The position numbers and the translations under genes are program-made. The notes beneath the pieces are model-generated. The model saw nothing but the letters and a program-made list of their open reading frames with translations. It did no database searches and was not told the origin of the DNA. A stretch of DNA of 64,000 nt from a virus (lineage: Duplodnaviria; Heunggongvirae; Uroviricota; Caudoviricetes). The stretch is from positions 132,338-196,337 of the IMG/VR virus record IMGVR_UViG_3300028534_000001; one strand, written 5' to 3'. How positions within the stretch are numbered: the first letter of the stretch is position 1; each line of letters starts with the position of its first letter. Of this stretch, positions 9,291-63,080 are shown piece after piece.

Positions 9291-9656
9291 TTATTCTCCT
9301 TCTTTAAATTTATCTTTCATAATTGCTGGTTTAATGATATTTTCCCATAACATTTTATGATTTTCTTTTAATTTTTCTATATTTTCTAATAATTTTTTAA
9401 AATCTTCATCAGATAATGAATTAAATCTATTATCAGATGGAATTTCTTTTAATAATTTATCTAAAATTTCTTTAATACAATCACTATTTTCGCATTTAGA
9501 AAATAAAAATAAAATTCCTTCATCTAAAATAGTTGTATAATCATCATCAACTTCTTTCCAAATAGTCCCTAAATCTGGTAAAGATAAACTTTCAATTTCA
9601 TTTTGATTTTTGTCTTCTTTTTCATTTTTAATTTCATTTAATAATTCTTTTAACAT
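9291..9656 (-). CDS. MLKEIL-family hypothetical protein
   Basis: N-terminus is MLKELLNEIKNE. 121 aa. Confidence 0.45.
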   Translation of the reverse strand: MLKELLNEIKNEKEDKNQNEIESLSLPDLGTIWKEVDDDYTTILDEGILFLFSKCENSDCIKEILDKLLKEIPSDNRFNSLSDEDFKKLLENIEKLKENHKMLWENIIKPAIMKDKFKEGE

Positions 9657-10063
9657 TAAATTTCCTTTAAAATTTGACTAGCAACTTTCATATCAAATGT
9701 TCCATCATTTAATTTTTTCAATTGACCCATAATTTTTCCAAAATCTTTAGGTAAAGTAAATTCATTAGAAGATAAAATATTTTGAATAATTATTTTCATT
9801 TCGTCTTTTGATTTAATTTTAGGTAAAAAATTTAAACTTAAAATAAAATCTAATTCATCTTTAACATCCATTCCATTTTGCATAGAATCTTCTAATTGTT
9901 TAACATATTTTTTTGTACCTTCAACAATCATTTCATCTTCTGATTTCTTTTTTTCTTTTGCTAGTTTTTGAATAGTATCAATTAACATCATTAAAGCATA
10001 AGCTTTATTAGGTGCTTCTTTTTTATATTTAAACATTAGTTTTTTCAATTCAATCATTTTCAT
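9656..10063 (-). CDS. hypothetical protein
   Basis: 135 aa ORF. Confidence 0.4.
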   Translation of the reverse strand: MKMIELKKLMFKYKKEAPNKAYALMMLIDTIQKLAKEKKKSEDEMIVEGTKKYVKQLEDSMQNGMDVKDELDFILSLNFLPKIKSKDEMKIIIQNILSSNEFTLPKDFGKIMGQLKKLNDGTFDMKVASQILKEI

Positions 10064-10355
10064 TTGTATCTCCTCTTATAATTGCTTTAATATCTCTTAA
10101 TTCTAAAAGAAAAAATTCACCTTCTTCAAATTTAATAGCAGTTGATATTGGCATTCTTCCATAATAAACAGAATCTCCTACAGAAATTTTATCATTTAAA
10201 TCTTTAAAAACTGCTACAACTTTACCTGTTTCAGGTTCTTTAGATGTTTGTAAAACTATTCCACTTGATGTTGTTTCTTCTTTATTTATTTCTATTAAAA
10301 TTCTCCCACCAATAGGTTCAAAATTTTTAATTGTCATTTTGTTTCTCCTTGACAT
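10050..10355 (-). CDS. GroES-like co-chaperonin (Hsp10)
   Basis: The FEPIGGRILIE, SGIVL, GKVVAV, VGDSV and DIKAII motifs align to the GroES IRPLHDRVIVK, GGIVL, GEVLAV, VGDIV and DILAIV motifs. Confidence 0.6.
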   Translation of the reverse strand: MSRRNKMTIKNFEPIGGRILIEINKEETTSSGIVLQTSKEPETGKVVAVFKDLNDKISVGDSVYYGRMPISTAIKFEEGEFFLLELRDIKAIIRGDTNEND

Positions 10356-10732: not shown

Positions 10733-11299
10733 TTAAATTTTATATTGTTCTACAATTATACCACATTCTTTTAAAAAATCCAAACTTTTAGTATCTCTAT
10801 ATTTTTCTTTATAAACAACTCTTTTAATTCCTGCTTGAATAATCATTTTAGCGCATTCAAAACAAGGTGAAAGTGTAACATATAAAGTAGCTCCATTTGT
10901 ACTTATTCCATTTTTTGTACAAAATAAAATAGCATTTGCTTCAGCATGAACTACTTCTGGAATTGTTTTATTATTACATTCACATTTATCTTCTCTAATT
11001 TCTTTTTTACCTGTACCACCACATTCATAACATAAAATTTCATTTTTATCAGGTATACTAAATCCATAAACATCACTTAAAGGTATTTTTAAATTTTCTT
11101 TATCTAAAATACCTTTACCATTACATAATTTACAAGTTTCTAATTTTTTTATAGTATAACCTGAAGGTAATCCATTATAACCTATACTTATGATTCTTCC
11201 ATCTTTTACTAAAACAGCTGCTACTTTTTTTCTTGTACATTTACTTTGATTTTTCCAAACATCAGCTGTTTCCATCATAACTTTATCATATTTTTTCAT
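10733..11299 (-). CDS. cd: dCMP deaminase with inserted DnaJ-type zinc-finger module
   Basis: GYNGLPSG, HAEANAI and SPCFECA are the CDA zinc motifs. A roughly 45 aa insert between YNG and HAE carries CKLCNGKG and CYECGGTG. Confidence 0.8.
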   Translation of the reverse strand: MKKYDKVMMETADVWKNQSKCTRKKVAAVLVKDGRIISIGYNGLPSGYTIKKLETCKLCNGKGILDKENLKIPLSDVYGFSIPDKNEILCYECGGTGKKEIREDKCECNNKTIPEVVHAEANAILFCTKNGISTNGATLYVTLSPCFECAKMIIQAGIKRVVYKEKYRDTKSLDFLKECGIIVEQYKI

Positions 11300-11368: not shown

Positions 11369-12196
11369 TTACCATTGAATTTTTTTAAATCTCATATCTT
11401 GAAAAGTATTTTGTTTAATATTAACATTTATAGTATTTTTAGAAGGTTTATTAGAATCTTCTCCTGTACTTATTCCTCCCCAATATTTACTACTTTCACC
11501 TACATTTAAATCAGTTTTTCCATAAATTTCTCTTATATCTAAAGGTGTATCATTTTTATCAATATCACAATAATGATAATCATAAAGAGTTATACTATGT
11601 TTTCCATTTTTAAAAGAAGCATAAATATAATTAGGATATATAGAATATTTCATTTTATTACCTTTTATTGAAGGTATATTATTATAAGATGTTTTATTAC
11701 CTATAAAATCAATAGCATTATAATTTATTTTATAAATTCTTCCTTCTTTTAAACTATTGGGAACATCAAAAGTAAAAGTATAAGGTCTTATACAAAAATG
11801 ATCTTTACTATATTCAGTTTTTATTTTTCCATCAGCTAATTTAAATGTTATTTTATATCTAGCATCTCTACTAATTTTATCAAATTTAGGAAATAAAAAA
11901 ATACCTATTCTTTTAACATTTCCAATTTTTTCATCTTTATTATTTACAATTGAAATATCATAAATTTTTATTATAGGACAAAATATTTGAATATTTTCAA
12001 AAGCACTTTTACCTTTTATTTTTGTTCCTATAATAGATAATATTTCATTTTTACATGAAACATCAACAACATTAACACATCTATGCATAATAGGATTAGT
12101 TTCTGGATGTTTGACATATGGGTGTTTTATGTTTGTATAATTTTCACTATATAAAAAACTAATCAAAATAACAATAAACATTAAAATTTTTTTCAT
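11369..12196 (-). CDS. secreted/membrane-anchored hypothetical protein
   Basis: The N-terminus has a hydrophobic signal/anchor MKKILMFIVILISFLYS. It overlaps the Sir2 gene by 4 nt (ATGA). Confidence 0.45.
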   Translation of the reverse strand: MKKILMFIVILISFLYSENYTNIKHPYVKHPETNPIMHRCVNVVDVSCKNEILSIIGTKIKGKSAFENIQIFCPIIKIYDISIVNNKDEKIGNVKRIGIFLFPKFDKISRDARYKITFKLADGKIKTEYSKDHFCIRPYTFTFDVPNSLKEGRIYKINYNAIDFIGNKTSYNNIPSIKGNKMKYSIYPNYIYASFKNGKHSITLYDYHYCDIDKNDTPLDIREIYGKTDLNVGESSKYWGGISTGEDSNKPSKNTINVNIKQNTFQDMRFKKIQW

Positions 12197-12903
12197 AATA
12201 TCCCCTTATTTTTTAATAATATTTCTAATTCTTTAGGGTTGCTACAATAATTATTATAACCTTTTCTATTATTTTTATCAACTAAAAAGGTCTCACAATT
12301 TGCAAATTTTGCTATTCCATCAATATCTATAACTATAGAACTACTACCTATTACAATTAACTTACTATTAGGGTTTTGTAAATATTCAAAAGCTCTTCTC
12401 ATATATGTATATAACCAAGCATATCCATTAAAAAATACAATATCAGGTTTTACTCCTTTTATACTATTACAATTTGGACATCTATCTTTTTCACAATCCC
12501 AATTTTTATATTTTATTTCAAATTTATTACCACAAGCTGTACATTCCATTTTAGTAATTTTACCATGTACATACATTGTAGGTATTTTTAATCTATCAAA
12601 AAAATCAGATATATTAGTTGTGATATTTATTAAAGTATCTTTATATTTATCATTTAATTTTTTTATAATATAATGATATTCATTACATTTAGAAGATTTT
12701 ATTTGATTTCTTAAAATATTATAAAATTCATGCATAACACAAAAATTTTTCTTCCAAGTTTTATCATTACAAACTATATCTTTGTTATATTTTTCCCAAA
12801 TAGAATCTTTTCCTCTAAATGTAGATAAACCAGACAAAATATCTAATCCTGCACCACTAAAAATTATAATTTTTTCACTACCATCATATCTAGGAATAAA
12901 CAT
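12193..12903 (-). CDS. Sir2-family NAD-dependent deacylase / ADP-ribosyltransferase
   Basis: GAGLDILSGLSTFRG is the Sir2 GAGIS..GIP.FR motif. The catalytic HG is present (YVHGKI). A zinc ribbon is formed by CTACG and CPNCNS. VIGSSSIV is also present. Confidence 0.7.
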   Translation of the reverse strand: MFIPRYDGSEKIIIFSGAGLDILSGLSTFRGKDSIWEKYNKDIVCNDKTWKKNFCVMHEFYNILRNQIKSSKCNEYHYIIKKLNDKYKDTLINITTNISDFFDRLKIPTMYVHGKITKMECTACGNKFEIKYKNWDCEKDRCPNCNSIKGVKPDIVFFNGYAWLYTYMRRAFEYLQNPNSKLIVIGSSSIVIDIDGIAKFANCETFLVDKNNRKGYNNYCSNPKELEILLKNKGIL

Positions 12904-14452: not shown

Positions 14453-15550
14453 TTAAATCTCCTTTTTATTTATTATAATTTTAATTTCATCAAATTCATA
14501 CCCAAGAGGCATTTCTAAATTTTTCATCATATTATATAATACATTTTCAGGAATAAATTTTCCTTCAGTTTCAAATCTGTATTTATTTCTAAAAAATAAT
14601 TCTTTAATTGGTGTTAATAAAGTAATAGCAATAGGTGAATGATTTTTTAGATTTGTTAACCATTTTCTTCTACTTTTCCAAGTCATATTAGTCATATCTA
14701 TAATAAAATCTTCATTTGAATTTTTTAATTCAGTAAATTTTTTAGAAACTCTTCTATCAATTTCTTTATGATCATCTTCAGTTAACATATTCCAACCATC
14801 ACTATATGTAGGATAACCTTTGCCTTTGCATTTATTACAAATTGAATGATCTAAATTATCACCTACATATCCTTCAATATAACCTTTGCCATTACAAAAA
14901 TTACAAATAAATTTTTCTTTGATATAATTCATCAAAATATTATCTCTACTTAAAACTTTTAAATTAGGTAAATTTTCCTTAATATAAGTTGATTTTCCAC
15001 TTAAAGGTGTTCCGATCATAATATAACATTTATTTTTTTTAACACCTCTTTTTATGTCTTTAAAATCAACAATGCATTCTTTTGCTTTTCTATTATTTTC
15101 ATTATCGAAAAAAATATTACCAGCTTTATCAAATAATGAAAAATTATATATTTTAAGATATTTATCAATATTTTTAGCAAAATAATGTTTTATTTGTTTT
15201 TCACTTTTTTGCCATAACATCCCGTGATAATTGATTGTATATAAAACATCTAAAATTTTATCTTTACCTAAAATTCTTTCAATATCATCAATATATTCTA
15301 ATGCTTCAAAAGTCGAAATACCTTCGTGACCTCTGTAATAATCTTTTCCATCTTTGTGAGTTTTAGCATTTGGTTTTCCCAAATCATGTAACAAACCAAC
15401 AATTTTATTAAAATCATCATTTGCTTTGCTAAATACAAGACAAGTATGAGTCCAAGTATCACCTTCTAAATGGTATTTTTCACTATGTAAAATAACATTT
15501 CTCAATTTTTCAAAATGATCTTTTTTTATTTTTTTAAATAATGTTTCCAT
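14453..15550 (-). CDS. HD-phosphohydrolase + T4 Pnk-type polynucleotide 5'-kinase fusion with DnaJ-type zinc-finger insert
   Basis: The N-terminal HD domain is marked by H..H and GLLHDLGKP. The C-terminal IMIGTPLSGKSTYI, SRDNI and DMTNMTWKSRRKW align to T4 Pnk IGCPGSGKSTWA, NRDDY and DTNLNPERRLAW. The insert carries CNFCNGKG and CNKCKGKG. Confidence 0.6.
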   Translation of the reverse strand: METLFKKIKKDHFEKLRNVILHSEKYHLEGDTWTHTCLVFSKANDDFNKIVGLLHDLGKPNAKTHKDGKDYYRGHEGISTFEALEYIDDIERILGKDKILDVLYTINYHGMLWQKSEKQIKHYFAKNIDKYLKIYNFSLFDKAGNIFFDNENNRKAKECIVDFKDIKRGVKKNKCYIMIGTPLSGKSTYIKENLPNLKVLSRDNILMNYIKEKFICNFCNGKGYIEGYVGDNLDHSICNKCKGKGYPTYSDGWNMLTEDDHKEIDRRVSKKFTELKNSNEDFIIDMTNMTWKSRRKWLTNLKNHSPIAITLLTPIKELFFRNKYRFETEGKFIPENVLYNMMKNLEMPLGYEFDEIKIIINKKEI

Positions 15551-16303: not shown

Positions 16304-17434
16304 TTAATTATCTAAATTTTTGATAAATTCTCTTGCTTTAGTAAGTTTAGAATTATCTTTTATTATTTTTTCTTTTAATAATTTATCTAAATCATTTTCA
16401 TTCTTTGCTTTCATTATAACTCCAAAATATGGGTATTTATTATATTTCATTGCAAATTCTTTTCTTTCCATATTTAGTTTTTCTTTAAAAAGATTTAAAC
16501 ATTTATTATATGTATGATTATAAAAATGTGAAACTTTGTTTGTTAATTCAGATATAATTTTATGTTTTTCACCTTTTAAATTTGATAAAATATCATCAAT
16601 TGTTTCATTTATAATATGTTCTATAAGTTTATTTTCAACTAATTCATTAGGTGATAATAATTTATGTAATGTAAAATACCACATTGTTTTAAATTTTCTA
16701 AAAGATGTTTTGAGTGGGTGATTATAATTTCTTACTACCCATCCTTCAATTCCTTCTTTTGTTTCTAGTAATTTTCTTAATTCTGATAATGTATAATTAT
16801 ATTTTTTTGCTAATTTTAAATTAAATTCTTTTGAAAAATGTTTTAAATCTTCATAATGTAAATATTCACCTGTAAATTTATTTCTTATTTGAATTAGTCT
16901 AAGTTCAAATTCTTCTTCATAATTAACAACAATTAAATTTTTCCACCCAACTAATTCAAAAAATGGAATAAATCCAATAAGTTTACAAGCTTTAATAAAA
17001 TTTAAATAATTTTCATTATTTTTAATAAATTTATTTGCTAAATCAGCTTGTTCTGAATAAAAAGAACCTTTAGTTCTAAGTAAAAAATTACCTTTTGAAG
17101 AAAATGTAGGAACAATTAAACTTCCATCTAATTTTTCCATAATTTCTAATTTATCATTATCATTCCAAGGTTTTTCTAATTCTTTATCAATAGTTAAAGG
17201 ATTTTCATTATCATTAAAAAATTTATGAAGACCTAACCATCTTTCTCCTGTATCCAAATTAAAACATAATCCTCTCATTTCTAATCTTTTAAAATCTTCA
17301 CTAAAATCGGTAAAACTTGCTAATCTATAATTAAAAATTCTAAATTTTTCTCCATCAAATTCCTCATCTTTATAATAAAAAGATTCATTATTTTCAACTA
17401 CTTTCATTGCTTCTTCTAAAGTTATTAAATTCAT
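16304..17434 (-). CDS. rnlA: RNA ligase 1 (T4 RnlA-like)
   Basis: At 376 aa it is close to T4 RnlA (374 aa). N-terminal FYYKDEEFDGEKFRIFNYRLASFTDF matches FFYSDDVS.GRTYRIFSYNYASYSDW. Motif I is EKLDGSL. Confidence 0.75.
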   Translation of the reverse strand: MNLITLEEAMKVVENNESFYYKDEEFDGEKFRIFNYRLASFTDFSEDFKRLEMRGLCFNLDTGERWLGLHKFFNDNENPLTIDKELEKPWNDNDKLEIMEKLDGSLIVPTFSSKGNFLLRTKGSFYSEQADLANKFIKNNENYLNFIKACKLIGFIPFFELVGWKNLIVVNYEEEFELRLIQIRNKFTGEYLHYEDLKHFSKEFNLKLAKKYNYTLSELRKLLETKEGIEGWVVRNYNHPLKTSFRKFKTMWYFTLHKLLSPNELVENKLIEHIINETIDDILSNLKGEKHKIISELTNKVSHFYNHTYNKCLNLFKEKLNMERKEFAMKYNKYPYFGVIMKAKNENDLDKLLKEKIIKDNSKLTKAREFIKNLDN

Positions 17435-17470
17435 TTTTATTCCTTATAATTATCATGGATATTTTATATA

Positions 17471-17499
17471 ATTATACTAAATTTTCAAATAAAAGTCAA
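17471..17499 (-). promoter_or_regulatory. sigma70-type early promoter
   Basis: The attata element is at 17471-17476 and agtcaa at 17494-17499, with a 17 nt spacer. Confidence 0.7.
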
Positions 17500-17507
17500 G
17501 AGAAATA

Positions 17508-18524
17508 TTAAATTTCTCTTTTTAAAATATCCCTTACTATTTCTTGAGCTGAAGGTCTTGCTAAATTTTGAATAATTTTTTTCTCGCCTTTATCTAATTC
17601 ATTAAATTTAGGATTATCTTTAATAAAATCTTCTAAAGCATCTTTGAAAAATAATCCTACAATTTTACCAAATTGTTTCCAATCTTTTTCAACTTCACCT
17701 TTTGAAAATAAATTATGAAGTCTATTAACTTCAAAGTATTTTGTAATTTCTTCTGCCCATTTTCTTTGTTCATCTGTAATTACAATTTGTTTTTTATTTT
17801 TAATTTTTTTAATTTTACCTTTTTCTTTAAATTTATCATTTTTATTTTTAAGAATAACTCTATCACCATTAGGCAATGTTTTATTAACTACTGGTTTAAT
17901 TACAACACCTTCACAAATATTTCCTTCTATAGGATTTAATCCATACAATTCAGGGATTTTTGTAGGAAATTCATTTGAAAATTGTAAACATTCTTCAAAT
18001 GTTCCTCTAAATAATTCTGGAACTACTTTAAATTCACAATTAAAAGCTAAATTTTTAACTTTATCCCATTCTAAAAATTCAGCATTTTCATCCTCATCAA
18101 CAGTCATAATATCAAAAACCATAAAATCAGTAAATGGAATATAATGAACTTCTTTTTGAATTTTTGTAAACCCTGGTTTAGTTTCACCATTAAAAATACC
18201 ACCAAAATGTTCTCCAAAAATTTGAACTTGTTTAATTTTTGGATTTTGTGAAATTAAAAAAGATGCAACTTTTTTAGCTGATTCTCTGTAATTTTCAAGC
18301 ATAATATCTGCATCATAAAATTTTTCTAATTCATTATCATTTAAAACAGATGTTCTTTTAGCAACTTTAACATTTTCTCCATCTGAAATGAAGCTAAAAT
18401 TTGTCCCGTGAATTTTTTCAGTAACTACCCATTCACAACAATCTATAATTCCACTTGTGATAATTCTTTTAATTTCTTTTTCTCTGTAAGAATTTTCAAT
18501 TGATGAATATTTTTTAAATTTCAT
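17508..18524 (-). CDS. rnlB: RNA ligase 2 (T4 Rnl2-like)
   Basis: MKFKKYSSIENSYREKEI...CEWVVTEKIHGTNFS is nearly identical to the T4 Rnl2 N-terminus and motif I EKIHGTN. At 338 aa it is close to T4 Rnl2 (334 aa). Confidence 0.8.
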   Translation of the reverse strand: MKFKKYSSIENSYREKEIKRIITSGIIDCCEWVVTEKIHGTNFSFISDGENVKVAKRTSVLNDNELEKFYDADIMLENYRESAKKVASFLISQNPKIKQVQIFGEHFGGIFNGETKPGFTKIQKEVHYIPFTDFMVFDIMTVDEDENAEFLEWDKVKNLAFNCEFKVVPELFRGTFEECLQFSNEFPTKIPELYGLNPIEGNICEGVVIKPVVNKTLPNGDRVILKNKNDKFKEKGKIKKIKNKKQIVITDEQRKWAEEITKYFEVNRLHNLFSKGEVEKDWKQFGKIVGLFFKDALEDFIKDNPKFNELDKGEKKIIQNLARPSAQEIVRDILKREI

Positions 18525-18557: not shown

Positions 18558-18586
18558 ATTATATCATATTTTAATAGAAAAGTCAA
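18558..18586 (-). promoter_or_regulatory. sigma70-type early promoter
   Basis: The attata element is at 18558-18563 and agtcaa at 18581-18586, with a 17 nt spacer. Confidence 0.7.
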
Positions 18587-18975
18587 GAATTTTCTTTTAA
18601 TTTTAATAATTTTTCTTTAATTTCTTTCCATATTTTATTTTTTTGTTGGTTAAATTCTAAGACATCATCACTAGGAGCACTAAAATAAAATCCTATTCCT
18701 TCGTCAAATTTATAAATTACATTTGGATTTAATAATTTTTTTAATTCATCAATTTCTACATCATTAGAAAAAGAAATATAAGGCACCCATCTTTCATCAA
18801 CTTTACCATTTTTACATAAAAGATGACCTTCACAACTCCAAGTAGTTGTATATCCTAATTCATTAAACAAAGGTATAATTTCTTGAATCATTTCATCTAT
18901 TAAAACTTTTTTTCCATTTATAATGACTGGTACTTGCATTTTTACTTCCTTATTTAATTTTTTGATAATATTCAA
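18583..18975 (-). CDS. hypothetical protein
   Basis: 130 aa ORF. Confidence 0.4.
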   Translation of the reverse strand: MNIIKKLNKEVKMQVPVIINGKKVLIDEMIQEIIPLFNELGYTTTWSCEGHLLCKNGKVDERWVPYISFSNDVEIDELKKLLNPNVIYKFDEGIGFYFSAPSDDVLEFNQQKNKIWKEIKEKLLKLKENS

Positions 18976-19402
18976 TTATTTTTTTAGAAAATTCTTCTAA
19001 AATATTTTCTAAATTTATATCAATTTTATCATTTACATTAGAATTTAATTTTGTTAAAATGTTTAATTTTTCTTTAAAATCATCTTTTAAATCTTCAATA
19101 TTTTCATCTATTGAAACACCATTTAATAATTTTTTTTCTAAATCTAAAATTTTATTAAATTCTAATTTTAATTCTTCTATATTAAAAGGGATTTTTACAA
19201 CTCTTTTTTTCACTTCTTCATTTAATTTGAATTTTATAAATTCTTTTAAATTAGTTTCAATATATTTTTCTGTCGTATATGTATGATTAAAAGGAATTTC
19301 AACATCAAACGGAATTTTACTTGATGACTCTAACAAAACTTTTATTTCCAAAATATCTTCTAATGTCTTTAAATCTTTTTTTACTGATGTAAATAATTTC
19401 AC
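18950..19402 (-). CDS. hypothetical protein
   Basis: 150 aa ORF. Confidence 0.4.
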   Translation of the reverse strand: MKLFTSVKKDLKTLEDILEIKVLLESSSKIPFDVEIPFNHTYTTEKYIETNLKEFIKFKLNEEVKKRVVKIPFNIEELKLEFNKILDLEKKLLNGVSIDENIEDLKDDFKEKLNILTKLNSNVNDKIDINLENILEEFSKKIIEYYQKIK

Positions 19403-36052: not shown

Positions 36053-37420
36053 TTATTTTCTTTTTCTTTTAAATTCGTGAACATCATTAAACATAATTTG
36101 AACAATTTTATCACTTTGTTCAATTTGAATTATATGTTTTTCATCTTTAGATAATTCTAAAAATGTTTTCCCATCACACCAAATATGAAAAGGTTTTCTT
36201 GATTTTATTTTAATTGTTAAATTTTGAGGTTCTAAAACATAATGGATTTTTCTATTAGTTTTATCTCCTGTTATAACCCAATTATTTGAAGTTAAAGGTA
36301 AAATAACACCACCATTATTTTTATTTATACCAGTACTACCTTGAGCAGTTGATACAATTATACCACTACCTTTGAAATCTTCAATTTGTTCATCTTTATC
36401 ATCAACACTAAAATCAATCCAAGACGACATATCACCACCTATACATATTTCATTAAAAGCTAAATGCCAATTATTTTCATATTTTACTTTTAATAAATGT
36501 AGTGAAATAATTTCAGGATTTGATATATTTTCTTCTTTATTCATAAGAAAATTTAAAGTACCTTTTCCAACACCATAAAAAGGTTTGTTTTTAAAAGAAA
36601 ATTCTCTTATAGCAAGAAGCATTGTTCCATCACCACCATATACTTTAATAAAATTTGTATATTCTACTATTTTATAATATTTATCAAATGTTTTTAATTC
36701 CCAAATAATTTCACCCCAAAATTTCCATTCATTTAATAATTTGAATGTTTTTTCAAAAAGGTATTTTTTACCTAATTCTTTATTTTTTCTAATTTCTCTT
36801 GCGTGAATAACATTTCCATTATTAGTAAATTCTTCAATATTTTTAATGTGATATCCTTCTAATCCAAAAATAGTAGGATAATTACCGTGATATTTTTTAT
36901 TTTTATATTCAAAATCAATCTTATCGACATCTTTTAAATGTGAATATAAAATAATATTTTTTTTAGATGATATGTCTAAAATTTGTTTTTCTATATTTTC
37001 AAACCATTTATCCCAAGATTCATAGTCATTAGCTCCTATTATAATAGCATTTGGGTATATTTTTTCAATAATTTCTTTTCTTTGTTCAAAAGATAAAGGA
37101 TTTTTATCATCAAGTATTTTATTTATACTACCTATTACAATTATAGGTATTAAACCATCTTCAATAATTTTATTAACAATACTAGCATGTCCTTTGTGGA
37201 AAGGTTGAAATCTTCCTAGAAATAATCCATATTTTTGGTTATAATTTTCATCACATATAAAACTTTCAATAAAAAATTGACCTCCCATAGGAGTATCAGA
37301 ACCTACTTTAAATCCACATTTAGAACATTTATAAATAGTTACTCCATTTCCTTTATATTCTTCTTCAATTATTTCTCTATAATTTTTTGAATATATTCCA
37401 CATTTAGGACATTTATACAT
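36053..37420 (-). CDS. bifunctional NMN adenylyltransferase (NadM-type) / NAD kinase fusion with N-terminal zinc ribbon
   Basis: The N-terminus is CPKCG...CSKCG. GLFLGRFQPFHKGHASIV...IIVIGS matches the archaeal NadM motif GRFQPFH.GH...IG.GS. The C-terminal domain carries the NAD kinase motifs GGDGTMLLA, GVGKGTLNFL, NEICIGG and GIIVSTAQGSTGINKNNGGVILP. Confidence 0.7.
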   Translation of the reverse strand: MYKCPKCGIYSKNYREIIEEEYKGNGVTIYKCSKCGFKVGSDTPMGGQFFIESFICDENYNQKYGLFLGRFQPFHKGHASIVNKIIEDGLIPIIVIGSINKILDDKNPLSFEQRKEIIEKIYPNAIIIGANDYESWDKWFENIEKQILDISSKKNIILYSHLKDVDKIDFEYKNKKYHGNYPTIFGLEGYHIKNIEEFTNNGNVIHAREIRKNKELGKKYLFEKTFKLLNEWKFWGEIIWELKTFDKYYKIVEYTNFIKVYGGDGTMLLAIREFSFKNKPFYGVGKGTLNFLMNKEENISNPEIISLHLLKVKYENNWHLAFNEICIGGDMSSWIDFSVDDKDEQIEDFKGSGIIVSTAQGSTGINKNNGGVILPLTSNNWVITGDKTNRKIHYVLEPQNLTIKIKSRKPFHIWCDGKTFLELSKDEKHIIQIEQSDKIVQIMFNDVHEFKRKRK

Positions 37421-58958: not shown

Positions 58959-59780
58959 TTAAATTTTTAATAATTTTTCAAATTCTGTTCTAACTCTTTC
59001 AGGATTAGCTTTTTTCATCATATAATCAAAATTTCTTCTAGCTGCTTCTAAAGTTCCTTTAATAGGTTTAAATCCTTTTTTAATAAATTTATATACTCTA
59101 ATAACTCTTAATGCATCTTCGTTTATTCTATCTTCAGGTTTTCCTATAAATGAAAATTCTTTATTTAAACAATGTCTAATACCTCTTTTAGAAGAGTCAA
59201 TAATAATATTTGTTTTTAAATCAAAATATAAAGCATTGATAGTAAAATCTCTTCTTTGCCAATCATCTTCTAAATTACCAAAATTGACTTCATCTGCTCC
59301 CAATCCTTTTGATTTATTATAAACATCTTTTCTAAATGTTGCTATTTCAAATGATTCTTTTGCTTTAATCATAATAACACCAAAATGTTCTCCAACTAAA
59401 TCTAATTTAATATCTTCATCTTTTAAAATATCAACAATTTCATTAGGTTTTAAATTTGTAACTAGATCAATATCTTTTGGTTTTAAACCTGCTAAAATAT
59501 CCCTAACAAACCCTCCTACAATATAAACATTACCTTTTTCTAAAAGTTTTTCAATCCATTTATTTTCTTTTTTAAATTGATTAGAATTATCTTTTAAATT
59601 TAAATATCTTTCAAATAATAAATCAAATTCTTTTAAATTTGTTTCTTCTAAAATTTTTAGTGGATTTTTATCTAATTTTTTTAAAAATTCTTTTTCAAAA
59701 ATCTTAGAATTATCATTAGTAAATTCAATACCATTTTTAAAAGCTAATTCTCTAAATTTTTCTAAAATATAATTTTTCAT
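58959..59780 (-). CDS. compact tRNA nucleotidyltransferase (CCA-adding / polyA polymerase head domain)
   Basis: YIVGGFVRDILAGLKPKDIDLVT matches GGAVRD.LLG....D.D. FEIATFRKDVY matches EVTTFR.E. QRRDFTINAL matches RRDFT.NA. The protein is only 273 aa, with an extra N-terminal segment of about 80 aa. Confidence 0.7.
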   Translation of the reverse strand: MKNYILEKFRELAFKNGIEFTNDNSKIFEKEFLKKLDKNPLKILEETNLKEFDLLFERYLNLKDNSNQFKKENKWIEKLLEKGNVYIVGGFVRDILAGLKPKDIDLVTNLKPNEIVDILKDEDIKLDLVGEHFGVIMIKAKESFEIATFRKDVYNKSKGLGADEVNFGNLEDDWQRRDFTINALYFDLKTNIIIDSSKRGIRHCLNKEFSFIGKPEDRINEDALRVIRVYKFIKKGFKPIKGTLEAARRNFDYMMKKANPERVRTEFEKLLKI

Positions 59781-59782
59781 TT

Positions 59783-60073
59783 TTACTCCTCAATATTTAT
59801 AATATCATCAATTTCAAATTTTCTATCAAATTCTTTCTCTAAATCTTCTTTTACTTTATTAACATCTACATTTAAATCATAAATTTTAGTTGTATATCTT
59901 TCAAGATCCATTCTATATAAATAATGTCTTTCTCCTTCTTTAAACCAAGGAAATTCTATTTCTAATGTAATAGTTTTTTTACCTTTTGATTTAACAATAG
60001 CTTTATAAAAACTTATTGTTTCTTCATATACTTTTACTACAATTACTTTATCATTTTTTCTTAAATCTTTCAT
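59783..60073 (-). CDS. hypothetical protein
   Basis: A 96 aa ORF follows promoter 60087..60115. Confidence 0.4.
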   Translation of the reverse strand: MKDLRKNDKVIVVKVYEETISFYKAIVKSKGKKTITLEIEFPWFKEGERHYLYRMDLERYTTKIYDLNVDVNKVKEDLEKEFDRKFEIDDIINIEE

Positions 60074-60086
60074 GATATCTCCTTAA

Positions 60087-60115
60087 CTTTTATATTATTA
60101 TATCATATTTTTAAT
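60087..60115 (-). promoter_or_regulatory. sigma70-type early promoter
   Basis: The attata element is at 60087-60092 and agtcaa at 60110-60115, with a 17 nt spacer. Confidence 0.7.
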
Positions 60116-60156
60116 AAAAAGTCAAGAAAATTTAAAAAAGATTTAAGGATATTTTA

Positions 60157-60195
60157 AAATTAAAAGTTGTATAATTATAATAGAAAAAAGAAAGA
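60157..60195 (+). repeat. promoter-like element lacking -35, inverted relative to the copies at 62129..62290
   Basis: The + strand reads aaaagttgTATAATtataatagaaaaaagaaagaat, which is about 85% identical to the reverse complement of the 62129..62290 repeat unit. Confidence 0.45.
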
Positions 60196-60248
60196 ATTTT
60201 TATTTTTTAAAATTTTAATTTAAGAATTTTAAATAATAATGAAATAAA

Positions 60249-61913
60249 TTAAGAAATATAATTTAAAAATTTCTTATTTATTTTATCAATTGATATATCA
60301 TAATCAAAATTTTCTAGAGTGTTTTTAATTGATTTTATATCATTTGATTTCACAAATAATGCATCGTGAATTCTTACACTTACAAGATTTAAAAGTGATG
60401 ATAATTCTTTCATCACTCTTTCCTCTCTTTTAGTATATTCCACAAATACAATATTGTCTTCATTAACACTCTTATCTTTTAATTCCTTATTATAAAACTT
60501 CAATTTATTTTCTACATAAAAATTTTTAAATTTAACATAAGTATCCTCTATAGCTTTCCCATAATTTTTTATAAATTCAATTGTTTCATTGTCTAATCTA
60601 TTAGTAAAATAATAAGGAACAAATTCTGCTGGCATTCCATTCATAATACTAATCCAATAAGTTTTTAATGTCTTCCTAGATTTTTTAAACATTTTTCTTT
60701 TGTTTTCATTTTGAATTTGAATTTTAGAAGCAATGTCTTGAGAAATTTCATCTAATTTATTATAAGCATTTTCAAGCACATTACTTCTAAAGAACTTTTT
60801 TTCATTATCCTTTAATAATTGAAAATTAGAAAATTTTAAATCAATTTCATATGTGAATCCCATAAAAGAAAGAACAATCGTTCTTAGTTCTTTATGTAAT
60901 TGAGTAAATAAATTATATTCTCTACCTTGGTTTTGATACTCAGTACTTAGAATACAGTTATCCTCTATTCCTTTTATAACTTTTTCAACTTGCATAATAT
61001 GACTGTTTAATTTATTTATCTTACCTTTAATAGCATCTTTTTGAAAATCTTCTAAATCTTTAGTTAAAGCAATTTCATATTTTCTAATTTTATTTTCTAA
61101 AGTTTTTTTATAACCATTTAAAACATCTTCTAATTTTAAATTTTTAGAATTTTTAATTACTTCACTAAATTCTTCTTTAGAAATTTCATCTTTTTTAAAC
61201 ATATTTTTAGCTACTTTTGTTAAATCTTCTCCTGATAAATAAGGTTTTTCAATTTCATATTTTCTTAAATAACAACTATTTATATTTTGAGTAAAATCTT
61301 TTTTATCTAAATCAATAACTTTATAATTTCTTTTTAATAATAAAGACATTCTAATAGAAGTAGCATTATAATTATATTCTTGATTTTTATATAAAAATTC
61401 TCTAGCATCTTCATATTTTTTATTAGCTATTAAATTAAAATATTCTATAGATTTATTATAATTCATAAATGTAAATTTTATAAAAGGTAATAAATTATAT
61501 GCATTAGCAATTCTTTCTTCTTCATCTTTAGTAGGATATCCTTTTATTTTAGATAAATAAAATTCTAAAATTCTAGCAACTTTGTTAGTTGAAAATTGTT
61601 TTTGGTTCTCTAAAATAGTCCCTAAAAACATACCATTGTAAATATAGTGCTCTTCTGCAAAGTAAATTTTTAAAGCTAACATAATAAGTTTTTTGTGTGA
61701 TTTTTTAATAAGAGAGTTGAATTTATTTTCTTCAATATGATGTTCTAATTCTTTGTTTATTATAGGAACAGGAACAATTAAATTAGAAAATACTTCGTCA
61801 GTAGAATTAAATTCACCCCAAAGTTTAACGTCATTTAAAGCTTTAGCGTGAATATTGTTTTTTCTTTTCCAATTTTTTCTAGCAATTTTTTTATATAATT
61901 TATTTTTATCCAT
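60249..61913 (-). CDS. hypothetical protein (554 aa), flanked by inverted promoter-like repeats
   Basis: It is a long ORF. RIHDALFV lies near the C-terminus. No family was recognised. Confidence 0.45.
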   Translation of the reverse strand: MDKNKLYKKIARKNWKRKNNIHAKALNDVKLWGEFNSTDEVFSNLIVPVPIINKELEHHIEENKFNSLIKKSHKKLIMLALKIYFAEEHYIYNGMFLGTILENQKQFSTNKVARILEFYLSKIKGYPTKDEEERIANAYNLLPFIKFTFMNYNKSIEYFNLIANKKYEDAREFLYKNQEYNYNATSIRMSLLLKRNYKVIDLDKKDFTQNINSCYLRKYEIEKPYLSGEDLTKVAKNMFKKDEISKEEFSEVIKNSKNLKLEDVLNGYKKTLENKIRKYEIALTKDLEDFQKDAIKGKINKLNSHIMQVEKVIKGIEDNCILSTEYQNQGREYNLFTQLHKELRTIVLSFMGFTYEIDLKFSNFQLLKDNEKKFFRSNVLENAYNKLDEISQDIASKIQIQNENKRKMFKKSRKTLKTYWISIMNGMPAEFVPYYFTNRLDNETIEFIKNYGKAIEDTYVKFKNFYVENKLKFYNKELKDKSVNEDNIVFVEYTKREERVMKELSSLLNLVSVRIHDALFVKSNDIKSIKNTLENFDYDISIDKINKKFLNYIS

Positions 61914-62128
61914 AATAAATATTCCTTTCTAAATTTTGTATAATCCATAATAAATATTCCTACAATAAAGTATAATTTTAGAAAGAAATATTTATTATGG
62001 ATATGATGAATAATTTATATTATTTAATTTTTTTATATTAAAATTATACAATATTTTATAAAAATAACAAACTTTTTTGTAAAAATTTTTATTAAATTTT
62101 TTCATATTTTAAAAATCCTTTATAAGAA

Positions 62129-62290
62129 ATATTCTTTTCTTTTTTCTATATATAATTATACAATTTTAAAATTGAATTAGAAATAATATATTCTTTTCTT
62201 CTTTCTATATATAATTATACAATTTTAAAATTGAATTAGAAATAATATATTCTTTTCTTCTTTCTATATATAATTATACAATTTTAAATT
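62129..62290 (-). repeat. tandem direct repeat, about 2.7 x 58 bp, each unit with a -10-like TATAAT but no TTGACT
   Basis: The unit atattcttttcttctttctatatataattatacaattttaaaattgaattagaaataat occurs at about 62129, 62187 and 62246. The third copy is truncated and overlaps the stop of 62274..63080. Confidence 0.6.
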
Positions 62291-63080
62291 CTTCTTCATT
62301 GATATACTTATCAAATAATTCTGGTTTATAATCTTCAAGTAATTCACTCCAAGTTCTAATTCTACTTCTTTCTACTGAACCATTATTTGTTTCTTTCATA
62401 TAAAGTTCTTTTTTACAAAATGTCCCATACTTAAACCATTTAGGACTATCTCCAAAACTTTTACCTGTTTTTTCATAAGCTAAAGTAATTTGTTCATTTG
62501 CTGTTTTACCTAGGAGTTCTTTATGACTGCAATATGCTTGTGCAAACCCTGTTTTAGCATTTCTAAAAACATCGTGATTTCTCCATTTGAAATTTTCAAA
62601 AACTTCTTCAAATGTTTCAACACCATAAACTCTAGCGTCAAAAAATGCTTCAAATCTTTTACTTACAATTGTATCAAGATATTTTAAATCATTTTCATTA
62701 TTTTTATAATATTCAATTTCATATTCCCAAAAAGCATTAAATTCTTTTGTAGCAAATGCTGATAATAGACTTGCCATCTTTTGAGTTCTACCAGCAAAAG
62801 GGTGTGTCTGTTTAGCATTACATTTAAGAAAATAAAGTGTAATTTCATCAGAACCTGTATATCCTAAATTAGCATTGAATTTATTTGCTAATGCTACCAT
62901 TGTATTAACCATAACTTTACCCAAAATTTCATCATAAGGTTTTTTCAAACCTTTTGTAAATTTACTAAATTTATGTCCATCAAGTCTAACAATTAAGTGA
63001 TAATCATTTGGAATTTGAGTTTCAAATTTTTTTTCTTGTTTTTTAAAAATATTATTTTTTGTGATAATTTTTTCTTTCAA
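62274..63080 (-). CDS. Thg1-like protein (tRNA-His guanylyltransferase / tRNA 5'-end repair family)
   Basis: YHLIVRLDGHKFSKFTKG..KPYDE matches Thg1 VVVRLDGRNFHRF....KPND. LGYTGSDEITLYF matches AYGQSDEYSFVF, which holds the catalytic acidic residues. Confidence 0.7.
   Translation of the reverse strand: MKEKIITKNNIFKKQEKKFETQIPNDYHLIVRLDGHKFSKFTKGLKKPYDEILGKVMVNTMVALANKFNANLGYTGSDEITLYFLKCNAKQTHPFAGRTQKMASLLSAFATKEFNAFWEYEIEYYKNNENDLKYLDTIVSKRFEAFFDARVYGVETFEEVFENFKWRNHDVFRNAKTGFAQAYCSHKELLGKTANEQITLAYEKTGKSFGDSPKWFKYGTFCKKELYMKETNNGSVERSRIRTWSELLEDYKPELFDKYINEEEFKIV

What the first reader, a model, noticed from the sequence alone, without database searches (positions are those of the whole stretch)
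14813..14905. Second copy of the CxxCNGKG...CxxCKGKG zinc-finger insert, in the Pnk-type kinase domain
CNFCNGKG and CNKCKGKG are inserted shortly after the P-loop. This closely mirrors the dCMP deaminase insert. Two unrelated enzymes carrying the same small Cys module suggests a mobile protein-level insertion, or a common partner or regulatory site such as recruitment to a complex or redox sensing.
Basis: seen in the sequence. Interest (0 to 1): 0.55.

Follow-up and report, generated by a model that had tools for sequence, protein, structure and literature searches.

The report
Zinc-knuckle insert in phage RNA-repair kinase
A phage RNA-repair kinase carries a small, lineage-specific four-cysteine (probably zinc-binding) hairpin in the loop that walls its RNA-entry tunnel; it is a common phage zinc-knuckle motif gained independently of the look-alike insert in the phage's dCMP deaminase, not a mobile module shared between the two.

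Summary
CNFCNGKG (14882-14905) and CNKCKGKG (14816-14839) lie on the minus strand in a 365-aa ORF (14453-15550). That ORF is an HD-phosphoesterase plus P-loop polynucleotide-kinase fusion (HD-Pnk type), sitting next to Rnl1- and Rnl2-like RNA ligases. The window holds four CxxCxGxG motifs against 0.007 expected by chance; the other two are in the dCMP deaminase.

The roughly 30-aa segment is a true lineage-specific insert. Only the window protein and two 70-72% identical orthologues have it, out of about 180 HD-Pnk homologues examined. A distant clade carries a different Cys4 insert at the same site.

By profile alignment, the insertion point falls inside the T4 Pnk segment 38-59. [quoted passage not shown]

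The "shared mobile module" idea is not supported:
- DNA similarity is confined to the CNGKG knuckle.
- The phage's own deaminase insert ranks 16th of 22 deaminase inserts in similarity to the Pnk insert.
- E. coli DnaJ scores about as well.
- DnaJ-type and plain zinc-ribbon inserts are widespread at the deaminase hot-spot in unrelated phages.

Best reading: a one-zinc, DnaJ-CR/Anti-TRAP-like hairpin that elaborates the acceptor-tunnel loop. It is a new variant of a known enzyme kind, of modest interest.

The parts
14453..15550 (-). HD-Pnk ORF (365 aa): N-terminal HD phosphoesterase domain plus C-terminal P-loop polynucleotide kinase domain
   Evidence: ORF. Pfam AAA_33 2.1e-08, HD sub-threshold. 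Profile hits to Pnkp1, T4 Pnk and CthPnk, and to the HD domains of CCA-adding enzymes and Cas3. AF2 model pLDDT 89.9. Best Foldseek PDB matches are polynucleotide kinases.
15119..15475 (-). HD domain core (aa 26-144), with invariant H27, E29, H35, H55-D56, H75, H109, D141
   Evidence: Invariant columns of alignment A1; PDB profile hits over profile positions 55-191.
14471..15034 (-). Polynucleotide kinase domain (aa 173-360)
14987..15013 (-). P-loop GTPLSGKST (aa 180-188)
   Evidence: Invariant G180, G185, K186; aligned to T4 Pnk 9-GCPGSGKS-16.
14942..14950 (-). S201-R202-D203. Asp203 aligns with the general-base Asp35 of T4 Pnk. Arg202 aligns with T4 Arg34. There is no Arg at D+3 (Leu206).
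   Evidence: residue roles in T4 and CthPnk from PMC3902929 and PMC2831316.
14816..14905 (-). The lineage-specific insert (aa 216-245): CNFCNGKG-YIEGYVGDNLDHSI-CNKCKGKG, a putative one-zinc DnaJ-CR/Anti-TRAP-like hairpin
   Evidence: Lies between helix 202-213 and helix 249-255 of the AF2 model; the insert itself has low confidence (10-residue pLDDT block means 48-72; <50 over aa 224-232).
14882..14905 (-). Knuckle 1, CNFCNGKG (aa 216-223)
14816..14839 (-). Knuckle 2, CNKCKGKG (aa 238-245)
14792..14806 (-). Conserved Y249-S250-x-x-W253 immediately after the insert. Y249 is invariant and aligns with T4 Pnk Tyr50 in the 48-DEYKY-52 loop. T4 Tyr52 stacks on acceptor base +2.
14690..14698 (-). D285-M-T287, the equivalent of T4 Pnk D85-T86 (T86 contacts the first acceptor phosphodiester)
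14576..14590 (-). Lid arginines R321...R325, aligned with T4 Pnk 121-KRNSKR-126
10733..11299 (-). dCMP deaminase ORF (188 aa) carrying the other pair of CxxCxGxG motifs
   Evidence: Pfam dCMP_cyt_deam_1 2e-24; PDB hits 4p9c and 1vq2.
10985..11149 (-). Deaminase insert (aa 51-105, relative to cyanophage S-TIM5 deaminase), with CKLCNGKG (11111-11134) and CYECGGTG (11009-11032)
16304..17434 (-). Rnl1-like RNA ligase, the functional partner of the end-healing enzyme
   Evidence: Pfam RNA_lig_T4_1 2.2e-20.
17508..18524 (-). Rnl2-like RNA ligase
   Evidence: Pfam RNA_ligase 2.3e-26 and T4_Rnl2_C 5e-13.

Best explanation
The ORF is a phage HD-Pnk RNA end-healing enzyme: an HD 2',3'-phosphoesterase fused to a 5'-OH polynucleotide kinase, working with the adjacent Rnl1/Rnl2 ligases. 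The flagged segment is a roughly 30-aa lineage-specific insertion in the loop between the helix that follows the catalytic Asp203 and the next helix.

Its two CxxCxGxG knuckles most likely chelate one Zn2+ through four cysteines, forming a rigid hairpin of the DnaJ cysteine-rich-region / Anti-TRAP type (inferred from motif and conservation).

[quoted passage not shown] The hairpin is therefore most plausibly a zinc-braced extension of the acceptor-entry rim, which stabilises that loop and reshapes docking or access of the broken (t)RNA substrate (inferred from alignment).

It arose independently of the deaminase insert. Both are separate uses of a zinc-knuckle motif that phages commonly graft onto surface loops.
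For: Identity of the enzyme:
- Pfam hits, PDB profile hits to Pnkp1, T4 Pnk and CthPnk, and a confident AF2 model (pLDDT 89.9) whose best PDB fold matches are polynucleotide kinases.
- Catalytic residues are intact: K186, S187, D203, D285/T287, R321/R325.
- Ligase neighbours are present, and the arrangement is syntenic in relatives.

Insert status:
- Present in 3 of 40 aligned homologues and in a single 50%-identity cluster among the top 150 representatives.
- The nearest relatives (about 50% identity) lack it.

Constraint:
- All four Cys are conserved, and the insert is 62-75% identical among the orthologues, against 71-74% for the rest of the protein.

Module type:
- Reproducible sub-threshold Anti-TRAP and DnaJ_CXXCXGXG hits in all three orthologues.
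- Spacing resembles DnaJ zinc centre II.

Position:
- Profile alignment to a verified T4 Pnk sequence places the insertion point between T4 residues 47 and 48.
- That point lies inside 38[22 protein letters not shown]59, described as the wall and roof of the acceptor tunnel and as the key difference from the open mammalian PNKP site (PMC2831316).
- In CthPnk, residues at Asp+13 to Asp+20 (Gln51, Thr54, Phe58) contact acceptor bases 1-3 (PMC3902929). The insert here starts at Asp203+13.

Hot-spot:
- A distant HD-Pnk clade (P0238, P0241, P0280) has a different Cys4 insert at exactly this site. It is placed far away in an NJ tree.

Independence from the deaminase insert.

Precedent:
- The DNA polymerases of HMO-2011-type phages carry a partial DnaJ central domain with two CXXCXGXG motifs (PMC9038755).
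Against: - Zinc binding is not shown.
- AF2 gives the insert low confidence (10-residue pLDDT block means 48-72; <50 over aa 224-232; no strands). A single-sequence run of the excerpt was uninformative (pLDDT 55).
- No coordinates were available, so proximity to the acceptor site rests on a sequence-profile alignment to T4 Pnk at low identity.
- The insert is not basic (net charge +1 to -2), which argues against simple electrostatic RNA binding.
- HD-Pnk lacks the Arg at D+3 (Leu206), so its acceptor site may differ in detail from those of T4 and CthPnk.
- DnaJ-CR and Anti-TRAP modules are best known for protein-protein contacts, which would favour a partner-binding role.
Confidence: 0.55

Rival explanations
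1. Mobile or duplicated protein module: the Pnk insert and the deaminase insert share a recent common origin, either by intragenomic copying of a small Cys module or by a mobile DNA segment.
For: The same motif type occurs twice in one genome and nowhere else in about 84 kb of it. The first knuckles share CxxCNGKG. Both inserts are present in the sister phage. One more distant relative has neither DnaJ-type insert.
Against: - DNA similarity is restricted to the knuckle codons, is only marginal (score 38, equal to the null 99th percentile), and there are no shared flanks or repeats.
- Knuckle spacing differs (14 versus 26 aa).
- The phage's own deaminase insert ranks 16th of 22 deaminase inserts, and E. 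coli DnaJ scores as high.
- In the sister phage the knuckles are CKTCNGKG versus CELCNGTG, so the CNGKG identity is not conserved.
- Deaminases with DnaJ-type inserts occur in unrelated phages with no HD-Pnk within the ±10 kb read.
Confidence: 0.07
2. Common docking handle: the hairpins on both enzymes bind a shared partner, such as a host DnaK-type chaperone, the phage GroES/GroEL system, or a phage nucleotide/RNA-metabolism complex. Alternatively, the hairpin mediates oligomerisation of HD-Pnk.
For: DnaJ-CR, Anti-TRAP and BSD2-type modules are protein-protein interaction elements, and all appear as sub-threshold family hits. The insert is not basic. The two DnaJ-type inserts co-occur in this lineage. 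A Cpn10 gene lies nearby.
Against: There is no direct evidence for any partner. The two inserts differ in length and in loop sequence, which is unexpected for one shared binding surface. Deaminase inserts of this type are widespread and are not linked to HD-Pnk. The second HD-Pnk clade uses a different Cys pattern at the same site, which points to a property of the site rather than a partner-specific epitope.
Confidence: 0.15
3. Neutral or purely stabilising decoration: a zinc-braced loop tolerated at a permissive surface site, with no role in substrate choice or regulation.
For: Such inserts occur sporadically at permissive loops in phage enzymes, for example the deaminase hot-spot with many unrelated zinc-ribbon variants. 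177 of about 180 homologues function without the DnaJ-type insert.
Against: The insert is as conserved as the rest of the protein across 70-72% identical orthologues. The same site has acquired Cys4 inserts at least twice. The site is inside the segment that shapes the acceptor tunnel.
Confidence: 0.2
4. Redox or zinc-release switch: oxidation of the four cysteines releases Zn and switches kinase activity.
For: Cys4 zinc centres can act as redox switches (general knowledge). The insert is positioned next to the active-site entrance.
Against: There is no specific evidence. No extra reactive-Cys context or partner redox genes were seen nearby.
Confidence: 0.03

Closest known systems
Runella slithyformis HD-Pnk (Munir & Shuman 2017, as cited in PMC6097658)
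   Same: The architecture matches: an N-terminal HD 2',3'-phosphoesterase plus a C-terminal 5'-OH polynucleotide kinase, with genetic linkage to a polynucleotide ligase.
   Different: This one is phage-encoded and is paired with Rnl1- and Rnl2-type ligases. It carries a 30-aa Cys4 insert in the kinase domain that about 177 of 180 homologues lack. The Runella sequence itself was not compared, because the primary paper is not in the library.
T4 Pnkp kinase domain, segment 38-59 (wall and roof of the acceptor tunnel)
   Same: The P-loop, general-base Asp, D-x-T motif and lid arginines align. The biological role is the same: tRNA repair together with Rnl1. The insert falls inside the counterpart of this substrate-gating segment.
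   Different: T4 has a HAD-type phosphatase rather than an HD domain, has Arg38 at D+3 (here Leu206), and has no cysteines or zinc in this loop.
HMO-2011-type phage DNA polymerase with a partial DnaJ central domain (PMC9038755)
   Same: A phage enzyme carrying an internal module with exactly two CXXCXGXG zinc-binding motifs.
   Different: The host enzyme is different (a family A DNA polymerase, with the module between the exonuclease and polymerase domains). No sequence comparison was made.
DnaJ cysteine-rich region zinc centre II and B. subtilis Anti-TRAP
   Same: Two CxxCxGxG knuckles separated by about 14-15 residues. There are reproducible weak profile hits: Anti-TRAP E 7e-4 to 1e-2, DnaJ_CXXCXGXG E 2e-3 to 0.1.
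   Different: Only one zinc centre (two repeats, not four). Scores are below the Pfam gathering cut-offs. The module is embedded in a kinase loop rather than in a chaperone or a free-standing protein.
Zinc-ribbon / DnaJ-type inserts at the GYNG...HAE loop of phage dCMP deaminases (including T4 Cd, which has its own insert at that site)
   Same: Small Cys4 modules grafted into a surface loop of a nucleotide-metabolism enzyme. 21 of 119 listed homologues have at least two CxxCxGxG motifs.
   Different: A different enzyme and a different site. That hot-spot is family-wide and highly variable, whereas the Pnk insert is confined to one small clade.
Cys4 zinc LID of Gram-positive adenylate kinases (own knowledge; Pfam ADK_lid)
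   Same: A structural zinc knuckle pair inserted in a P-loop kinase.
   Different: The Adk zinc sits in the LID over the donor site. Here the insert is in the acceptor-side (NMP-bind-equivalent) loop between the Asp helix and the next helix.

Membership tests
HD-Pnk end-healing enzymes | N-terminal HD-domain phosphoesterase with His/Asp metal ligands | tested here: met
   Invariant H27, H55-D56, H75, H109 and D141 in A1. Profile hits to the HD domains of CCA-adding enzymes and Cas3-HD (E 3e-5 to 1e-4). Pfam HD alone is sub-threshold for the window protein (16.2 versus 22 bits).
HD-Pnk end-healing enzymes | C-terminal P-loop 5'-OH polynucleotide kinase domain | tested here: met
HD-Pnk end-healing enzymes | Genetic linkage to a polynucleotide ligase | tested here: met
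   The Rnl1-like ORF at 16304..17434 and the Rnl2-like ORF at 17508..18524 lie within 3 kb on the same strand. The arrangement is conserved in L001 and L003.
HD-Pnk end-healing enzymes | Demonstrated 5'-kinase and 2',3'-phosphoesterase activities | not testable with these tools
   Requires biochemistry.
T4/Cth-type polynucleotide kinase | GxxxxGK[ST] P-loop, general-base Asp, D-x-T acceptor motif, lid arginines | tested here: met
   G180...K186-S187, D203, D285-x-T287 and R321/R325 align to T4 K15/S16, D35, D85/T86 and R122/R126.
T4/Cth-type polynucleotide kinase | Asp-x-x-Arg motif (the Arg binds the first acceptor phosphodiester) | tested here: not met
   The motif here is S-R-D-N-I-L. Position D+3 is Leu206 (invariant among the 10 sequences of alignment A2; consensus L in A1). 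Arg202 sits at D-1, like T4 Arg34.
DnaJ central cysteine-rich domain (PF00684) | CxxCxGxG repeats | tested here: met
   Two exact repeats, conserved in the orthologues except that P0003 has CKGEC in the second.
DnaJ central cysteine-rich domain (PF00684) | Four repeats forming two zinc centres; score above the Pfam gathering cut-off | tested here: not met
   Only two repeats. Scores are 13-19 bits against a cut-off of 32.7.
Anti-TRAP (PF15777) | Profile match above the gathering cut-off | tested here: not met
   16-20 bits against a cut-off of 32, although the hit is reproducible in all three orthologues.
Any Cys4 zinc finger | Binds Zn2+ through four cysteines | not testable with these tools
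   Inferred from motif and conservation only. AF2 confidence in the insert is low.
Mobile or duplicated insertion shared with the deaminase | The two copies are more alike than unrelated modules of the same type; shared DNA flanks | tested here: not met
   The phage's own deaminase insert ranks 16th of 22, and DnaJ scores equally. DNA similarity is limited to the CNGKG codons.
Adenylate-kinase-type zinc LID | Cys4 module located in the LID between the Walker-B strand and the C-terminal helix | tested here: not met
   The insert lies between the helix after Asp203 and the next helix, upstream of the D285 strand.

The most novel reading that the evidence does not exclude
In this phage lineage, two unrelated enzymes (the RNA-repair kinase and the dCMP deaminase) were both fitted with DnaJ-CR-like zinc hairpins as a common handle for one partner. 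The partner could be a host Hsp70/DnaK-type chaperone or a phage metabolic complex, so that folding, localisation or activity of several phage enzymes is co-ordinated through a shared mini-domain.
Probability: 0.07. Interest if true: 0.6.

Novelty: new variant of a known kind. Interest (0 to 1): 0.33.

Why it matters
In T4 Pnk, the loop carrying this insert is the element that decides which nucleic-acid ends a polynucleotide kinase accepts: a single-strand tunnel in T4 versus the open duplex site of mammalian PNKP. A zinc-braced extension of that loop, gained at least twice in HD-Pnk enzymes, is a natural experiment in re-engineering acceptor specificity. It could explain how phages tune tRNA repair to particular anticodon-nuclease damage.

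The finding also adds a documented case to a broader pattern: phages graft DnaJ-type or zinc-ribbon knuckles into surface loops of replication and nucleotide-metabolism enzymes. However, it is a small lineage-specific embellishment of a known enzyme type, and the more exciting 'mobile module' reading is not supported.

Tried and rejected
1. Searching the 5.8-billion-protein database with the 43-aa insert alone returned nothing, because no candidate passed the word filter (one search was a parameter error).
2. A tblastn of the insert against cultured phages gave only non-significant hits (best E 0.07). These were small hypothetical Cys-rich proteins, for example a Mammaliicoccus phage protein with an N-terminal CEFCGGKGFIERFAHVEDGVCYGCKGKGY. 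This is useful as context but is not evidence of homology.
3. AF2 on the full protein models the two domains well but not the insert. AF2 on the 56-aa excerpt in single-sequence mode was uninformative (pLDDT 55). No coordinates could be inspected, so Cys-Cys geometry and distance to the active site could not be measured.
4. The primary HD-Pnk paper (PMC5237116) is not in the library. Searches for the structural zinc of dCMP deaminase found nothing usable.
5. The rest of the 222-kb contig could not be scanned. Only about 20 kb beyond the window ends was reachable, and it holds no further CxxCxGxG motifs or CxxC pairs.
6. An intein or homing-endonuclease remnant, and a frameshift or assembly artefact, were considered and rejected. 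The insert is 30 aa, in frame, and conserved in independent assemblies.
7. An adenylate-kinase-like zinc LID was rejected on position.
Full report
**1. Observation**

The window is 19.9% G+C and almost all long ORFs are on the minus strand. The flagged coordinates fall in a 365-aa ORF, 14453..15550 (-). On that strand, 14882-14905 encodes CNFCNGKG (aa 216-223) and 14816-14839 encodes CNKCKGKG (aa 238-245).

A six-frame scan finds exactly four CxxCxGxG motifs in 64 kb. These are the two above plus CKLCNGKG (11111-11134) and CYECGGTG (11009-11032) in the 188-aa dCMP deaminase ORF 10733..11299. Shuffling residues within the open frames of at least 80 codons on the minus strand gives 0.007 motifs on average, with a maximum of 1 in 2000 shuffles.

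**2. The host protein**

Pfam gives AAA_33 (2.1e-08, aa 177-348) and a sub-threshold HD domain. A profile built from 40 homologues hits the following PDB entries:
- Pnkp1 of the Pnkp1-Rnl-Hen1 RNA-repair complex (4xrp, 2e-17)
- T4 polynucleotide kinase (1ltq, 7e-12)
- Clostridium thermocellum Pnk (about 1e-10)
- with its N-terminal half, the HD domains of CCA-adding enzymes and Cas3

AlphaFold2 gives a confident model (pLDDT 89.9, pTM 0.87). Its best PDB matches are CthPnk, mammalian PNKP and Pnkp1.

The invariant residues are H27, H55-D56, H75, H109, D141, G180, G185-K186 and D203. D285, T287 and R321 are nearly invariant. This is the HD-Pnk architecture described for Runella slithyformis: an HD 2',3'-phosphoesterase plus a 5'-OH kinase, encoded next to a ligase (PMC6097658).

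In the window, the neighbours on the same strand are a dNMP kinase, an Rnl1-like ligase (16304..17434) and an Rnl2-like ligase (17508..18524). The closest cultured relatives are the homologous genes of T4-like Campylobacter phages, at 28-30% identity. Those genes are annotated variously as poly(A) polymerase or as polynucleotide kinase/phosphatase.

**3. The segment is a lineage-specific insertion**

- In the 40-sequence alignment, only the window protein, P0002 (72% identity) and P0003 (70%) contain the roughly 30 residues. The other 37 sequences run straight from '...EYGKEK....' to the invariant 'tYSeiW'.
- An exhaustive HMMER search of 1.84 billion representatives found 1575 homologues. In the top 150, nearly all align in two stretches that break at query positions about 212-245. 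Only the query's own cluster aligns through.
- Measuring the distance from the SRD motif to the D-x-T motif gives a median of 47.5 residues, against 80 in the window clade.
- The three orthologues come from independent assemblies, and their genomic context is syntenic.
- All four cysteines are conserved. The insert is 62-75% identical among the orthologues, against 71-74% for the rest of the protein. It is therefore under ordinary purifying constraint.

**4. A hot-spot**

Three other representative clusters carry a different Cys4 insert at exactly the same alignment position. They are P0238, P0241 and P0280, at 28-33% identity to the window protein. Their pattern is KCxNC(N/D)ExG...GxC-x4/5-C..GY.

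In a neighbour-joining tree of 180 homologues with insert columns removed, the two insert-bearing groups lie far apart; their common ancestor is the root of the tree. The nearest relatives of each group lack the insert. The simplest reading is at least two independent gains at a permissive and possibly functionally useful loop.

**5. Where the loop sits**

My recalled T4 Pnk sequence was verified as 100% identical to pseT and then aligned to the HD-Pnk profile. The correspondences are:

| Window protein | T4 Pnk |
|---|---|
| S201-R202-D203 | N33-R34-D35 |
| Insertion point | between residues 47 and 48 |
| Invariant Y249 | Y50, in the 48-DEYKY-52 loop |
| D285-x-T287 | D85-T86 |
| R321/R325 | 121-KRNSKR-126 lid |

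[quoted passage not shown] This segment comprises the ends of two helices and their connecting loop. They also report that:
- Tyr52 stacks on base +2.
- Lys54 lies at the tunnel entrance.
- Absence of this segment gives mammalian PNKP its open, duplex-accepting site.

In CthPnk, residues 13-20 positions after the catalytic Asp (Gln51, Thr54, Phe58) contact acceptor bases 1-3 (PMC3902929). The insert here begins 13 residues after Asp203. In the AF2 model the insert connects helix 202-213 to helix 249-255.

By inference from this alignment, the hairpin projects from the rim or roof of the acceptor entry. One caveat is that HD-Pnk has Leu, not Arg, at D+3, so the details of acceptor binding may differ from T4 and CthPnk.

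**6. What the module is**

Two CxxCxGxG knuckles 14 residues apart define the DnaJ cysteine-rich-region type of zinc centre. All three orthologues, and the isolated 43-aa segment, give reproducible but sub-threshold hits to Anti-TRAP (E 7e-4 to 1e-2) and DnaJ_CXXCXGXG (E 2e-3 to 0.1). The E. coli DnaJ centre-II hairpin aligns without gaps.

Net charge is +1 to -2, so this is not a basic RNA-binding finger. Zinc binding is inferred, not shown.

AF2 does not model the insert with confidence (10-residue pLDDT block means 48-72; <50 over aa 224-232). A single-sequence run of the excerpt was uninformative.

**7. Relation to the deaminase insert**

Relative to the minimal cyanophage S-TIM5 enzyme (4p9c), the window deaminase has an insert at aa 51-105. 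T4 Cd (1vq2) has its own insert at the same place.

Among 120 listed homologues, the GYNG...HAE loop ranges from 27-28 residues to more than 120:
- 21 of 119 listed homologues (excluding the near-identical fragment P0042) carry at least two CxxCxGxG motifs.
- Many others carry plain CxxC...CxxC ribbons.
- Some combine both types.

Such deaminases occur in unrelated phages with no HD-Pnk within the ±10 kb read. A relative whose HD-Pnk lacks the insert has a deaminase with an ordinary zinc ribbon, CPFCGS...CRKCKK.

When the Pnk insert is scored against the 22 deaminase inserts that have at least two motifs, the phage's own deaminase ranks 16th, and DnaJ scores equally well. The knuckle spacing differs, at 14 versus 26 aa.

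At DNA level, the best local alignment covers only the CNGKG knuckle and adjacent AT-rich codons. Its score of 38 equals the 99th percentile of random same-strand segments. In the sister phage the first knuckles are CKTCNGKG and CELCNGTG, so the CNGKG identity is not a conserved link.

No further CxxCxGxG motifs occur in the rest of the window, in about 20 kb of flanking contig, or in about 56 kb from related phages. There is therefore no evidence for a mobile or duplicated module. The resemblance reflects the generic motif.

**8. Precedents**

- HMO-2011-type phage DNA polymerases carry a partial DnaJ central domain with two CXXCXGXG motifs (PMC9038755).
- Small phage proteins with the same mini-domain exist, for example in Mammaliicoccus phage PMS2, though that match is not statistically significant.
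- From my own knowledge, Gram-positive adenylate kinases have a Cys4 zinc in the LID. That is a different position in the P-loop kinase fold.

**9. Verdict**

The idea of a common partner remains untested and unlikely.

The best explanation (confidence about 0.55) is a one-zinc hairpin that braces and extends the acceptor-tunnel loop of a phage HD-Pnk tRNA-repair kinase, gained independently of the deaminase insert. I have not found this insert described in the papers available to me. It is a new variant of a known enzyme kind, of modest interest (about 0.33). The decisive tests are zinc measurement and an insert-deletion specificity assay.

Noticed in passing
window 58959-63080 (-), 16304-18524 (-), 14453-15550 (-): The phage carries an unusually complete tRNA-repair and tRNA-maturation toolbox. 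It comprises a Thg1-like 3'-5' polymerase (62274..63080, 6e-26), a CCA-adding/PolyA_pol head-domain protein (58959..59780, 8e-28), Rnl1, Rnl2 and HD-Pnk.
   Followed up: partly
window 36053-37420 (-): A 455-aa fusion protein. It has an N-terminal CPKCG...CSKCG zinc ribbon, a cytidylyltransferase-like (NMNAT-like) domain and an NAD kinase domain. Together with the SIR2 gene at 12193..12903, this suggests phage NAD metabolism or counter-defence.
   Followed up: no
window 10733-11299 (-) and homologues P0043-P0161: The GYNG...HAE loop of phage and metagenomic dCMP deaminases is a hyper-variable hot-spot. It ranges from about 27 to more than 120 aa and has repeatedly acquired DnaJ-type knuckles, plain zinc ribbons, or both in tandem.
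   Followed up: partly
P0238, P0241, P0280 (representative-library proteins; no locus): A distant HD-Pnk clade (428-537 aa) carries a different Cys4 insert at the same kinase loop: KCxNC(N/D)ExG...GxC-x4/5-C. It also has large extra insertions in the HD domain.
   Followed up: partly
window 10050-10355 (-) and 9656-10063 (-): A phage-encoded Cpn10/GroES homologue (6e-12) and a YqeY-like protein (1.7e-09) lie just downstream of the deaminase. Both are conserved in the relatives L001 and L002.
   Followed up: no
L001 1223-1636 (+), L003 400-813 (+): In the sister phage, a free-standing 137-aa Hint/intein-splicing-domain ORF lies next to the Rnl2 gene. No Pfam hit was found for the ORFs at the corresponding place in the window (18583..19402).
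   Followed up: no
L008 1684-2376 (+), beyond the high-coordinate end of the window on the same contig: An Anti-Pycsar Apyc1-like metallo-beta-lactamase-fold gene, plus ferritin-like and Ham1p-like genes, lie just outside the window. An Apyc1-like gene is also present in the relative L006.
   Followed up: no
window 14942-14950 (-): HD-Pnk homologues have S-R-D-x-x-L in place of the D-x-x-R acceptor motif of T4 and CthPnk. The Arg sits at D-1 and an invariant Leu at D+3. This implies a somewhat different way of holding the first acceptor phosphodiester.
   Followed up: partly
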